From Ruditapes philippinarum (lineage: Eukaryota): a DNA stretch of 64,000 nucleotides. The stretch lies in assembly GCF_026571515.1 (NCBI RefSeq), contig NW_026864532.1:62001-126000 (forward strand). The letters are read 5' to 3'. Made by a program: the position numbers. Positions 15,001 through 20,000 of this stretch are shown here, one piece after another. Position 1 is the first letter of the stretch. Each line of letters opens with the position of its first letter.

Positions 15001-17016
15001 TGTTTCATGCCAAATATCTAAGCTCTAGCTCTTAGGGTTTTTTAAAAGAAGATATTTAAAGTTTTTACTTTCGGTTGCCATGGCAACCAGAGTTCTGCAT
15101 GGAATTAAATTCTTTGAACAATTTTTAAAGGTGACCACCGAAGGAACATTCCTGTGAAGTTTGGATGAAATTGGCTTAGTGGTTTATGAGGAGATGTCAT
15201 TTAAAGTAAAAGTTTACGGACGGACGACAGACGGACGGACGAAAAGCGATCACAAAAGCTCACCCTGTCACTTTGTGACAGGTGAGCTAAAAAGGTTTTA
15301 ATTTATGATTTTTTTTAATGATGAGTGTTATTTCTAAGAGAATTAACAATCTTCAAGGATTTTTTTTCTAAAATAAAGACTTTTCAATGACTTTTTCAAG
15401 GACACCCTGAATTCAAGCACTTTTCAAGACCCAGATCGTTTTCAAGCACTTTTCAAGACCTGTGCGAACCCTGATATTATGATGTGCCAAAAAGCAAAAC
15501 TAATCAATTTCATATAACAGGCAGGTTTTATACATTCTTAATTGGAAGAGGTTGCAGAATTGAAATAACATCATCACTTTGTTATCATATGAAGATATTC
15601 CAGCTTTCTTGGTAGAATGCATTATTTCAGACAACAAGAGCGATCAGTAATCACATGTGTCGCCTCATGATGGCCAATTTCATGTTGGGACAAATTTTGT
15701 GACAGACGGACAGTGCACAACTAGACTTGGTACTGAACATTCCTGTAAAGTTTGGATAAAATTGCACCAGTAGTTTATGAGGAGTAGTCCGGACAAGCTT
15801 TTGCGTATCTGGCAACACACAGAAAAAAACACCTTTTTATCAAAGGGCCATAACTCGGCCAAAAATCATTCAACCAGAAAACTTGTGCAATATGCGCAAG
15901 GACTTGAGCTACAGATCAATCCTGTAAAGTTTCATTGAAATTGCATTAGTGGTATAAGAGGAGTAGTCCGGACAAACTTTAAAATTAAAAATTATTAAAG
16001 GGCCATAACTCTGACAAAAATCATTGAACCGGAAAATGCTGACACTATGCACAACTAGACTTGGTACTGATCATTCCTGTAAAGTTTGGATGAAATTGCA
16101 CCAGTAATTTATGAGGAGTAGTCCGGACAAGCTTTTGTGTATCTGGCAACACACAGAAACAAGAGCGATCAGTAATCACATGTGTCGCCTCATGATGGCC
16201 AATTTCATGTTGGGACAAGTTTCGTGACAGACGGACAGACAGACGGACAATGCACAACTAGACTTGGTACTGATCATTCCTGTAAAGTTTGGATAAAATT
16301 GCACCAGTAGTTTTTGAGGAGTAGTCCGGACAAGCTTTTGTGTATGTGGCAACGCACAGAAAAAAACACCTTTTTATCAAAGGGCCATAACTCGGCCAAA
16401 AATCATTCAACCGGAAAACCCGTGCAATATGCGCAAGGACTTGAACTACAGATCAATCCTGTAAAGTTTCATTGAAATTGCATTAGTGGTATAAGAGAAG
16501 TAGTCCGGATAAACTTCAAAAATAAAAATTATTAAAGGGCCATAACTCTGACAAAAATCATTGAACCGGAAAATGCTTACAATATGCACAACTAGACTTG
16601 GTACTGATCATTCCTGTAAAGTTTGGATGAAATTGCACCAGTAGTTTATGAGGAGTAGTCCGGACAAGCTTTTGTGTATCTGGCAACACACAGAAAAAGA
16701 AACGTTTTTATCAAAGGGCCATAACCCGGCCAAAAATCATTCAACCGGAAAACCCGTGCAATATGCGCAAGGACTTGAGCTACAGATCAATCCTGTGAAG
16801 TTTCATTGAAATTGCATTAGTGGTATAAGAGAAGTAGTCCGGACAAACTTTAAAATTAAAAATTATTAAAGGGCCATAACTCTGACAAAAATCATTGAAC
16901 CGGAAAATGCTGACAATATGCACAACTAGACTTGGTACTGATCATTCCTGTAAAGTTTGGATGAAATTGCACCAGTAGTTTATGAGGAGTAGTCCGGACA
17001 AGTTTTGTGACGGACG

Positions 17017-17048
<32 letters not shown>

Positions 17049-17049
17049 G

Positions 17050-17081
<32 letters not shown>

Positions 17082-20000
17082 GAAGTGATCCCTATATGTC
17101 GCCACTACTCCGTAGAGGCGACACAAAAAACACCTTTTTATCAAAGGACCATAACTCGGCCAAAAATCATTCAACTGGAAAACCCGTGCAATATGCGCAA
17201 GGACTTGAGGTACAGATCAATCCTGTAAAGTTTCATTGAAATTGCATTAGTGGTATAAGAGAAGTAGTCCGGACAAACTTTAAAATTAAAAATTATTAAA
17301 GGGCCATAACTCTGACAAAAATCATTGAACCGGAAAATGCTGACAATATGCACAACTAAACTTGGTACTGATCATTCCTGTAAATTTTGGATGAAATTGC
17401 ATCAGTAGTTTATGAGAAGTAGTCCGGACAAGTTTTGTGACGGACAGGCGGACGGACGGACGGACAGACGACGGAGAAGTGATCCCTATATGTCGCCACT
17501 ACTCCGTAGAGGCTACACAAAATGGGCACTGAACCTTCAGACAATATCACCATAAACCAAACTCATCATTTAATTAATTTTTACCATGTCACACACAAAA
17601 ATTACCTTCTGGATTCAATGAACGCATATTTCTTGTCTTTTCAGCATTGTATGGCCTCACTTGAATCTGGTGTTCTAGGATAGTAGCAGGGTACTTGTCA
17701 AAGAACATCTCGTTGACAGCCATGTCAAATGTGGGTATCACTTCCTGTGGATAATTAATCAGCTGACGATACAGATCAGCATCAAACTCGCGCAGATGCT
17801 CGCAGTTTATGTTAAGGAATGGTTCTCCGATGGCATTGATCTGTAAGAGAGAAATTAATAAATTATTCATTAAATTTATCAAGCATTGTAATACAAATGT
17901 GTTAAGGTATCCTTTTATTAAGTCTGTAAACACAAAACAGCCATATCATACAAACACTTTGCTTACTTTAGTCACCAATAACACTGCAATACTGACCCTA
18001 AACTATAAATCCGAAGGACAACTTATACAACTAATTGCTAATTAATTCAGTAGTTTTTTACCTCTTCAAGTCTCTGCAAGTAGTAAGGCTGGTTGATGTC
18101 CATGCCTTCAAATGCCTCGTCCTCATCAACGTTCTTTTCCACAAACTTCAGAATAAATCTGCGGAACTTCTCCTTGCAGTGACTTACGACTACATCTGTT
18201 CCCCAGATTACCAGCTGTGGTCCGGCATTTGTATCACTTGTAATATCACTTGTCATTCTGGTAGCTTCCTGCAAATTTTAACATTACAATTTGAATTAAT
18301 ACAGGGAAACCAAAGTATTCAACTGCTATATATGAGCTGTGCCATGACAAAACCAACATAATGGGTTTGCGACCAGCATGGATCCAGACCAGCCTGAGCA
18401 TCCGCGCAGTCTAATCAGGATCCATGCTGTTCGCTTACCAACCCTATTACAAGTAGAGAAACTGAAAGCGAACAGCATGGATCCTGATCAGACTGGGCGG
18501 ATGCGCAGGCTGGTCTGGACCCATGCTGGTCGCAAACCCATTATGTTGGTTTTGTCCTGACGCGGCTCATATTATCTTTCATTGAGCAACAATTTATTAA
18601 TAATAACTCAATCATTTTAAATAGCATTTTGAGACATATTTACACTTAATTTTAAAGTCATTCACATTTATCCAAAGGTAGTTTTAGTACATATTATGCA
18701 AGCAAAACAAGATGAACAAAACTGTAACTCACAGCTTTAAGGCAATACATTTAGCTCAGTATCAGACCTATCAATGCAAAATGTCCAAATTTTACATCAC
18801 TCAAATAATTCCAATTCTAAATAGAAAGGATTGTTTGTATTCTCAAACAAACTGCAACCAAAACATGTTTGTGTTGTTAGATAGTTCATATGCCTGAACA
18901 TCTGCCTCAAGTACAATATGCCATCTTCAAATAACTCCTAACATACTTTTTGTTAAGATTCTTCTTGCACTTTTATTCAGACTCTACTTACACTTTGTTC
19001 AGACCCTCCAATGGCCACAGTTCTCATTTTTCTCTCACTATGAATATCTGGGCGTGACCTAATTGGTGTTTCGCCAACCCCGGGAGTGCGAGGCCCTCCT
19101 CTACTGCTTGGTGTACCATAGTTTAGTGGAGAACTTAGATCAATTTCACTGGTTGGAGCTACGAATATAAGCAAAAAACACATCTTTAATCTTTAACTTT
19201 TAATTTCTAGTTTATTGATTTTTTTTATCTGATATCAACACTCAATAATTATGCAACATAAACCGAACAAGCATAACTATCTTTTACTAAAAGTAGATTA
19301 CCTAACACAATCATGCTTAAATGCATTTTCCTGACAAAAATAAATGGAAATGTATGTCTGTACATCTGACCATAATGTACTTCAATCTATACATGCTGAA
19401 ATGTAATTTGCAGCATCAACAATGCCTTTATAATGATAATGATTTCAACACTTTTTTATTAAATGGGCATATCTATTGCCCTAACTCAGTGGTAAGGTGT
19501 TTACCACAACTTTTACGCAATATTTTGACGTTGCACGGAAAAGTTGTGGTAAACACCCTATCACCGTACCTATTGAGAAAGCTAAAATTTGCAATGAAAT
19601 GCCATTCTCTTATTCAGTCCTGTAAATAGCTATATAAACACAAACTAAAAGATGAAACTAACCTCCGGCTCTCTGTTGTGGGCTTGAGAACAAGGAAGAT
19701 TCCCCACCAGAAGGCGGGGCAGCTGGTGAAGAAGGTAGAGGAGCCATGTCACCACCTGGAGAGGCTTCAACTCTACGTCTCTGGGCTGGTGGGGATGACA
19801 CTTCATCTTCCTTGGCTGCTTTGGCCTTTCGTGCACTTCGTCTGGCTAATTAACCAGTAAAATGTAATGAAACAGTTATGCAGTTACTTAAAATATTGGT
19901 ATGGCAGGGCTCTCGTTAGCATTTTGAGACTGGGGCCAGGGTCCATGCAGTGGGGGGAATTTTGCATGATTTTCAAATATTTTTCATTCAAGGGGGAATT

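What the first reader, a model, noticed from the sequence alone, without database searches (positions are those of the whole stretch)
15633..17521. A HINE element inserted into a copy of itself, at a target it carries in its own repeat
Seen: the block has two identical 5' ends (15633, 16158) and two 3' ends (~17126, ~17521). Removing 16158-17126 restores the unit junction CACACAGA|AAAAAACACC and leaves an outer element with the same layout as the inner one (partial B-A-B-A-B). Known: Helentron/HINE elements insert in T/A runs without a TSD. Inference: the internal unit supplies its own A7 target, so self-insertion could lengthen arrays without unequal crossing-over and seed satellite DNA. The high identity of the two copies suggests recent, possibly local, transposition.
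Basis: partly seen in the sequence, partly recalled or inferred. Interest (0 to 1): 0.72.

Follow-up and report, generated by a model that had tools for sequence, protein, structure and literature searches.

The report
Transposon copy nested inside its twin
A small non-coding rolling-circle transposon (a HINE) has landed inside an older copy of the same family, in a run of A's within that copy's internal repeat; the structure is real, but it is an ordinary nested insertion.

Summary
The block has two copies of one element end (15633, 16158; 81 nt, 98%) and two of the other end (to 17124 and 17518; 84 nt, 94%). Removing 16158-17124 leaves a 922-bp outer element that is collinear end to end with the 967-bp inner one: 887 matches, 32 mismatches, and gaps only in microsatellites and the A-run. 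A 50+50-nt "empty-site" query built around the inner copy matches three intact unit junctions over 100 of 100 nt at 95-98% with no gaps. The insertion is therefore precise, has no target-site duplication, and sits in an A7 run.

The element has HINE anatomy: 11-nt subterminal inverted repeats, a 5' hairpin, a GTCY microsatellite and central repeats.

The wider inferences are not supported. There is one event. No other family copy lies in the window and no eukaryotic genome could be searched. The copies differ by 3.2%, with private changes in both, so "recent or local" is not shown. The element's own arrays grew by clean tandem duplication. Same-family nesting of HINEs is already in print. Interest is low.

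The parts
15633..16157 (-). Outer HINE copy, left part on the + strand. This is its conventional 3' part: the RF end, a short GACR tract, partial unit B0, unit A1 and unit B1 up to the first A of the target run.
   Evidence: D4, D1, D2; collinear with inner 16158-16693; unit register.
16158..17124 (-). Inner HINE copy, 967 bp and complete: RF end, GACR tract, partial B0, A1, B1, A2, truncated B2, long GACR microsatellite, LF end.
   Evidence: One search shows that the empty-site query built from its flanks matches three intact junctions over 100 of 100 nt, at 95-98%, with 0 gaps.
17125..17518 (-). Outer HINE copy, right part on the + strand. This is its conventional 5' part: six A's of the split target run, unit A2, truncated B2, microsatellite and LF end.
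   Evidence: collinear with inner 16694-17124; D3.
16181..16191 (-). 3' subterminal inverted repeat of the inner copy (11 nt). The same motif lies in the outer copy at 15656-15666.
   Evidence: 11 of 11 complementary to 17115-17125.
17115..17125 (-). 5' subterminal inverted repeat of the inner copy. The outer counterpart at 17509-17519 carries one substitution (17514).
17085..17124 (-). 5' hairpin of the inner copy: the subTIR pairs with the 7-nt internal inverted repeat at 17097-17103.
   Evidence: Inner: -10.5 kcal/mol, z -4.14, 0 of 200 shuffles as good. Outer counterpart 17479-17518: -6.5 kcal/mol, z -2.48, 3 of 200.
17009..17076 (-). Microsatellite of the inner copy, (GACR)n on the + strand and (GTCY)n on the element strand. 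The outer counterpart is at 17451-17470. Short second tracts lie at 16226-16249 and 15701-15712.
15823..15829 (+). Intact A7 run in the B-to-A linker (a paralogous empty site). A second is at 16360-16366. A same-length variant, A5-G-A3, is at 16694-16702.
16250..17009 (-). Central repeat array of the inner copy: a 334-bp higher-order unit made of A (155 nt) and B (179 nt), 2.3 copies at 96% identity.
   Evidence: (D1: 8 cores of 144 nt; A and B are about 77-79% alike).

Best explanation
Two separate transposition events of one family of non-autonomous Helentron-type elements (HINE) produced the block.

An older copy (15633-16157 plus 17125-17518) sits in an intron of an MCM gene on the minus strand. 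A second copy (16158-17124) later integrated into it. It has the same orientation and lies in the T7 run (A7 on the + strand) of the linker between internal repeat units B1 and A2.

Integration added the element and nothing else: no target-site duplication and no deletion. That is the known behaviour of HINEs and Helentrons, which insert into oligo-T through a single-stranded rolling-circle intermediate.

Shown here: the nested geometry, the exact junctions, the HINE anatomy, and the divergence between the copies.

Inferred: the transposition mechanism itself; that the direct orientation follows from the strand of the T-run; and that both copies and the doubling of the internal repeat belong to one burst of activity.
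For: - Nested order of the doubled ends.
- End-to-end collinearity of the inner copy with the rejoined outer copy: 887 matches, 32 mismatches, and 51 gap columns confined to two microsatellite tracts and the A-run.
- The published paralogous-empty-site criterion (at least 90% identity over at least 90% of a 50+50-nt query; PMC4067079 Methods passage) is met three times inside the window: 98%, 96% and 95% over 100 of 100 nt, with 0 gaps.
- HINE anatomy on the minus strand: 11-nt perfect subTIRs, a 7-nt IR forming a hairpin (z -4.14), a (GTCY)n microsatellite and central tandem repeats. This matches the Cg_HINE scheme (PMC7492417 Results).
- All four related copies in the window are followed by A4-A6 at the LF end on the + strand (T-runs before the conventional 5' end) and share the other terminus, AACAAGAG.
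- The published target is T-rich or TT, without TSD (PMC7492417; PMC4067079).
- The 28 substitutions plus three length differences between the copies argue against a duplicated assembly of a single element.
- The outer copy carries a substitution in its 5' subTIR that weakens its hairpin. This fits the older copy, though it is only one site.
Against: - No read-level check and no allele lacking the inner copy could be examined.
- The outer copy has no empty site in the window (its query hits only its own two flanks).
- Restoring A7 assumes that two of the nine flanking A's belong to the element. That fits the shared AACAAGAG terminus but is not independently proven.
- The 3' stem-loop expected of HINEs is not supported by folding (z -0.62; 48 of 200 shuffles fold as well).
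- No autonomous partner was seen. None of the 20 stop-to-stop frames of 110 aa or more in the window overlaps the block. Only 5 of the 20 were scanned against Pfam, and those 5 gave no Rep or helicase match.
- Polarised changes (15 outer, 10 inner of 25) show no significant excess in the outer copy, so the order of events rests on the geometry alone.
Confidence: 0.88

Rival explanations
1. The internal T7 run is a preferred self-target. The family nests into itself in direct orientation more often than chance, possibly by local reinsertion from the outer copy, and this route lengthens arrays and seeds satellite DNA.
For: - The hit is in one of the two longest homopolymer runs of the element. 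A7 is the longest; there are 2 such runs and no T run of 6 or more.
- The direct orientation keeps the arrays co-oriented.
- Oligo-T preference is published.
- Insertion-site preference as a source of TE dimers that can expand is published for other TEs (PMC5932611 passages).
- Nested Helitrons can be re-mobilised as composites with several termini (PMC3288121 passages).
Against: - There is one event only, picked by a reader looking for oddities.
- A random A^A step within the element would fall in an A7 run 12 times in 127, so the site alone is weak evidence.
- Run density in the element is about 1.5 times the window's background.
- The other HINE arrays in the window (6797-7634, 10525-11154, 13943-15069) show no nested ends.
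- Element ends remain inside the nest, so no pure array results.
- The family's own A-B array was doubled without any element ends at the junction.
- The inner copy has at least 10 private changes, so a very recent local copy is not indicated.
Confidence: 0.1
2. Assembly artefact: one real element was written twice, for example two haplotypes or repeat-induced mis-joins merged into one contig.
For: Repeat-rich, heterozygous genomes are prone to false duplications. A difference of about 3% between the copies could be allelic. No reads were available.
Against: - A mis-join through homologous repeats would place the junctions at homologous positions and give a tandem pattern.
- Here both junctions fall exactly at the element termini, in nested order, and the split target run adds up to the intact A7 plus the two terminal A's.
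- The unique flanks are not duplicated.
Confidence: 0.04
3. Recombination rather than transposition: a circular or ectopic copy entered the resident copy by homologous exchange in the repeats.
For: The copies share about 97% identical repeats, which are good substrates for recombination. Rolling-circle elements form circles with joined ends.
Against: A single crossover between a circle and the resident copy gives a head-to-tail tandem, with the end2|end1 junction in the middle (geometric argument, inference). The observed order is end1-end1-end2-end2, with junctions at the termini and in the A-run.
Confidence: 0.02

Closest known systems
Cg_HINE elements of the Pacific oyster (Vojvoda Zeljko et al. 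2020, PMC7492417; Results, Discussion part 1 and passages read; supplementary array table searched by motif only)
   Same: - Layout: 5' subTIR, IR and microsatellite in the left flank; central tandem repeats of about 140-180 bp in fixed orientation; 3' subTIR in the right flank.
- The microsatellite motif is GTCY.
- Insertion is into T-rich or TT sites without TSD.
- Copies are frequent in introns and in other repeats.
   Different: - The units here are 155 and 179 nt, alternating as a 334-bp higher-order repeat.
- Six family-specific motifs of 14-24 nt gave 0 hits in the CL1-13 array table. Only a 12-nt motif shared with CL8 was found, 216 and 200 times on the two strands.
- The 3' stem-loop is not supported.
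- That paper has no occurrence of 'nested'.
INE-1/DINE-1 self-nests in Drosophila melanogaster (Bergman et al. 2006, PMC1794594; passages and Table 3 seen)
   Same: A HINE-type element inserted into another copy of its own family. Table 3 lists 9 INE-1-in-INE-1 nests, and 15 TE families form self-nests.
   Different: The host is an insect. No statement was seen about the position of the insertion within the host copy, or about internal repeats as the target.
Double-insertion model for TE-derived satellites (McGurk and Barbash 2018, PMC5932611; passages seen)
   Same: [quoted passage not shown]
   Different: That model concerns head-to-tail dimers separated by a reused TSD, in TEs that make TSDs. 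Here the copies are nested, there is no TSD, and the target lies inside the element.
Nested Helitrons with multiple termini in maize (PMC3288121; passages seen)
   Same: Rolling-circle elements nested in one another. Such nests are proposed as the source of composite elements with several ends.
   Different: Those are canonical Helitrons (A^T target, 5' TC and 3' CTRR ends), carry gene fragments, and belong to different families.

Membership tests
HINE (non-autonomous Helentron; Thomas et al. 2014, Vojvoda Zeljko et al. 2020) | Subterminal inverted repeats of about 11-13 bp at both ends | tested here: met
   11 of 11 nt complementary in the inner copy (17115-17125 against 16181-16191). The outer copy has 10 of 11 (substitution at 17514)..
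HINE (non-autonomous Helentron; Thomas et al. 2014, Vojvoda Zeljko et al. 2020) | Short inverted repeat complementary to the 5' subTIR, a few bases downstream of it | tested here: met
   A 7-nt IR lies 11 nt from the subTIR. Hairpin energy is -10.5 kcal/mol, z -4.14, 0 of 200 shuffles as good (inner). The outer hairpin is weakened: -6.5 kcal/mol, z -2.48..
HINE (non-autonomous Helentron; Thomas et al. 2014, Vojvoda Zeljko et al. 2020) | Microsatellite following the left flank | tested here: met
   (GTCY)n on the element strand: 17009-17076 in the inner copy and 17451-17470 in the outer..
HINE (non-autonomous Helentron; Thomas et al. 2014, Vojvoda Zeljko et al. 2020) | Central tandem repeats in one orientation relative to the flanks | tested here: met
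   Eight unit cores in register, alternating A and B, with the same orientation in both copies..
HINE (non-autonomous Helentron; Thomas et al. 2014, Vojvoda Zeljko et al. 2020) | Palindrome or stem-loop after the 3' subTIR | tested here: inconclusive
   The last 40 nt fold no better than shuffles (-4.1 kcal/mol, z -0.62, 48 of 200 shuffles as good). An 8-nt perfect palindrome overlaps the end of the subTIR (seen in the sequence). The related copy at 13735-15295 has a clear 7+7 palindrome at the same place.
HINE (non-autonomous Helentron; Thomas et al. 2014, Vojvoda Zeljko et al. 2020) | Insertion into T-rich or TT sites with no target-site duplication | tested here: met
   Inner copy: a T7 target and three paralogous empty sites at 95-98% over 100 of 100 nt with 0 gaps. 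Outer copy: preceded by T4 on its own strand, with no empty site available.
HINE (non-autonomous Helentron; Thomas et al. 2014, Vojvoda Zeljko et al. 2020) | No coding capacity | tested here: met
   None of the 20 stop-to-stop frames of 110 aa or more in the window overlaps 15633-17521.
HINE (non-autonomous Helentron; Thomas et al. 2014, Vojvoda Zeljko et al. 2020) | An autonomous Helentron (Rep, helicase, endonuclease) sharing the termini | not testable with these tools
   The source genome and other eukaryotic genomes were not searchable. Five of the 20 long frames were scanned against Pfam and gave no Rep or helicase match; the other 15 were not scanned.
One of the 11 described Cg_HINE families of Crassostrea gigas | Sequence similarity of repeat units to clusters CL1-13 | tested here: not met
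   Six motifs of 14-24 nt from units A and B gave 0 occurrences in the array table. Caveats: cells of that table are cut at 400 characters, and the flank consensus sequences are in a PDF that could not be read.

The most novel reading that the evidence does not exclude
The T7 tract in the linker of this family's own higher-order repeat is a recurrent self-target. New copies would then nest into old ones in direct orientation far more often than chance. Such nests could be re-mobilised from the outer 5' end to the outer 3' end, or by skipping the inner terminator. That would spread copies with doubled, co-oriented arrays: a transposition-driven route from a short internal array towards a satellite.
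Probability: 0.1. Interest if true: 0.55.

Novelty: new member of a known kind. Interest (0 to 1): 0.2.

Why it matters
As it stands, this is a clean textbook example. The intact unit junctions beside the nest serve as built-in empty sites. They fix the element's termini to the base and show integration into an oligo-T run with no duplication or loss of target. That is useful for annotating this family.

It would matter more only if a genome-wide census showed that the same run is hit again and again. That would add a transposition-based step to the known ways in which Helentron-borne repeats grow into satellite DNA in bivalve-type genomes.

Tried and rejected
- **Other copies in the window.** blastn of the block against the whole window found none. 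The only outside hits are 50-102-nt matches (75-86%) to 15144-15241 in the neighbouring element. No in-window count of insertion sites was possible.
- **Matching to described C. gigas families.** Six unit motifs gave 0 hits. Four motifs from the neighbouring arrays gave 0 hits. Only short generic motifs were found. The window's arrays are related to oyster-type repeats but are not the listed clusters. The host species was not determined; 'bivalve-like' is an inference.
- **Dating the inner copy against the outer.** Differences were polarised with paralogous units: 15 outer-derived and 10 inner-derived of 25. There is no usable asymmetry.
- **Positional orthology of units.** Units A1 and A2 have no position-specific differences shared by both copies. 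B has one B0-specific and one B2-end site. So this supports only a near-simultaneous origin, not a unit-by-unit tree.
- **Rfam scan of 13000-18500.** Two matches, both below their gathering scores (mir-576 at 40.7 against 99 bits; tsr31 at 30.3 against 50). I treat them as chance.
- **Entry by homologous recombination of a circle.** Rejected on geometry (see rivals).
- **Literature on a HINE inserting into a T-run of its own central repeat.** Searches (listings), plus passages in eight papers, gave no such report. 'Nested' occurs 0 times in PMC7492417 and in PMC2374699. The 2021 paper cited by the review PMC12628747 for Helitron structures inserted within other elements in C. gigas is not held, so I saw nothing of it.
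- **Collections.** The genome-wide test therefore stayed undone.
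Full report
**What is there**

The block 15633-17521 contains two copies of one element end and two copies of the other.
- An 81-nt end lies at 15633-15713 and 16158-16238, 98% alike.
- An 84-nt end lies at 17045-17128 and 17439-17522, 94% alike.
- The order is end1, end1, end2, end2, which is a nest and not a tandem.

Between the ends lie eight repeat-unit cores in register. They alternate between type A (155 nt) and type B (179 nt including a 24-nt linker). A and B are 76-79% alike. 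Units of one type are 95-99% alike.

**The nest is exact**

I took 16158-17124 out by coordinates in a script and aligned the rejoined outer element with the inner one.
- The alignment gave 887 matches, 32 mismatches and 51 gap columns.
- All gaps lie in two microsatellite tracts and the A-run.
- Both copies have the same layout: end, short GACR tract, partial B, A, B, A, truncated B, microsatellite, other end.

I then applied the published test for element boundaries: a chimeric query of 50 nt upstream plus 50 nt downstream, with at least 90% identity over at least 90% of the query (Methods passage of PMC4067079). The query built around the inner copy matches three intact B-to-A junctions of the same block over 100 of 100 nt with no gap:

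| Intact junction | Identity |
|---|---|
| 15774-15873 | 98% |
| 16311-16410 | 96% |
| 16645-16744 | 95% |

The same test for the outer copy hits only its own flanks. Its empty site is not in the window.

**The target**

Intact junctions read CAG, seven A's, CACC at 15820-15833 and 16357-16370. The third (16691-16704) has the same length with three substitutions. At the nest there are three A's on the left (16157-16159) and six on the right (17125-17130).

The 8-mer AACAAGAG occurs five times in the window. Four of these are at the left edge of a HINE copy: 10382, 13735, 15633 and 16158. The next outward base differs among them. So two A's belong to the element and the target was A7, split 1 + 6. 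There is no duplication and no loss of target bases.

**What kind of element**

Read on the minus strand, the inner copy has these parts in order:
- a T-run, then an 11-nt subterminal inverted repeat;
- 11 nt further on, a 7-nt repeat complementary to it;
- a (GTCY)n microsatellite of 68 nt;
- the repeat array and a second short GTCY tract;
- the other arm of the 11-nt inverted repeat;
- a 23-nt tail.

The 5' hairpin is strong in the inner copy: -10.5 kcal/mol, z -4.14, and 0 of 200 shuffles fold as well. In the outer copy it is weakened by one substitution: -6.5 kcal/mol, z -2.48, 3 of 200. The 3' tail folds no better than shuffles: z -0.62, 48 of 200.

This is the HINE scheme described for Cg_HINE of the Pacific oyster: 5' subTIR, IR and microsatellite on the left, central repeats, 3' subTIR on the right, the same GTCY microsatellite, T-rich or TT targets, and no TSD (PMC7492417, Results read). 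It is also the scheme of DINE-1 and other HINEs (PMC4067079, passages). Thomas et al. also report a variable number of T's at the termini.

The A-run is a T-run on the element's own strand.

The family itself was not matched to the listed oyster clusters. Six unit motifs gave 0 hits in the array table. Only a 12-nt motif shared with cluster CL8 was found. The flank consensus sequences are in a PDF I could not read. The host species was not determined.

**Surroundings**

The block lies in an intron of an MCM gene on the minus strand.
- An MCM_N exon frame lies at 17589-17945 (E = 1.3e-14).
- An MCM_OB exon frame lies at 11981-12382 (E = 8.5e-22).
- The two frames were searched separately.

Three more HINE-type copies lie nearby in the same orientation. 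Two are related: 10382-11384 and 13735-15295. One belongs to another family: its array is at 6797-7634, with a hairpin end near 7680-7715. None of them is nested.

**Age and source**

In ungapped blocks the two copies differ at 28 of 875 positions (3.2%, K2P 0.033; 19 transitions, 9 transversions; 7 at CpG). I polarised 25 differences in the repeats using the paralogous units: 15 are private to the outer copy and 10 to the inner.

Units A1 and A2 share no position-specific difference between the two copies. B shows one B0-specific site and one at the end of B2. From this I infer that the doubling of the 334-bp repeat in the source element and the split of the two copies were close in time, as in one burst.

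None of this tells a local source from a distant one. With at least 10 private changes in the inner copy, the event is not very recent.

**The wider idea**

The hit lies in one of the two longest homopolymer runs of the outer element.
- If A^A steps within the element were hit at random, 12 of 127 lie in those two runs.
- The element has 2 runs of 7 or more in 922 bp. The window has 94 such A or T runs in 64,000 bp, so the element is about 1.5 times richer.
- This is one event, chosen because it looked odd.

The nest leaves both element ends and two microsatellites between the array pieces. The family's own array shows clean unit junctions, so it grew by ordinary tandem duplication.

I could not count nests genome-wide.

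**What is known already**
- Self-nests are documented. In D. melanogaster, 15 TE families form them, and Table 3 of PMC1794594 lists 9 INE-1-in-INE-1 nests.
[quoted passage not shown] The paper it cites is not held.
- Nested Helitrons as a source of composites with several termini are described for maize (PMC3288121 passages).
- Repeated insertion at a preferred site as a seed for satellites is the double-insertion model (PMC5932611 passages).
- I found no report of a HINE inserting into a T-run of its own central repeat (searches, plus the passages read). That negative is limited to open-access text.

**Verdict**

'Recent or local' and 'self-target that builds satellites' are not supported by anything beyond this single case. 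It is a new instance of a known kind. Interest is low, and it would rise only if a census shows recurrent hits at this run.

Noticed in passing
window 6797-17518: Five HINE-type copies of at least three families lie within 11 kb, in introns of the MCM gene. They are at about 6797-7715, 10382-11384, 13735-15295, and the nested pair. All have their conventional strand on the minus strand, the same as the gene. The inner copy's orientation may be forced by its target, so there are at most four independent events.
   Followed up: partly
window 15144-15193 compared with units at 15735-15784, 16069-16118, 16606-16655: A 50-nt stretch next to the microsatellite of the neighbouring element (13735-15295) is 84-86% identical to part of the B units of the nested family. 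The repeat units of this family may therefore have arisen from an element-intrinsic core segment rather than from a captured satellite.
   Followed up: partly
window 15690-15713 and 17426-17448 (outer); 16215-16249 and 16996-17030 (inner): The repeat array is bracketed on both sides by a direct repeat: a motif of about 16 nt (ACAARTTTYGTGAC) followed by a GACR tract (seen). This hints that the array arose by duplication between two such sites.
   Followed up: no
window 16694-16704: The second unit junction of the inner copy has three substitutions within 11 nt of the A-run and linker (A5-G-A3-C-G instead of A7-C-A-C-C). This is a local cluster of changes, against about 3% elsewhere.
   Followed up: no
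window 34152-59620, minus strand: There is a tandem cluster of five carboxylesterase-family paralogues: 34152-35627, 39998-41462, 46715-48223, 52712-54157 and 58160-59620. One was checked in Pfam (COesterase, E = 4e-106). The copy at 39998-41462 is split into two overlapping frames.
   Followed up: partly
window 30319-31135: A minisatellite with a 33/66-nt period runs for about 12-20 copies. It lies in the 2-kb bin with the window's most extreme AT skew, -0.379.
   Followed up: no
window 10382-10420: The related copy at 10382-11384 keeps the AACAAGAG terminus. It lacks the palindrome and the subTIR arm that the copy at 13735-13790 has at the same end, so it appears internally deleted at its conventional 3' end.
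   Followed up: no
window 17521-17602: The outer copy's conventional 5' end lies only about 80 nt downstream of the apparent splice donor of the MCM_N exon. The donor was read from the sequence and was not checked with transcript data.
   Followed up: no
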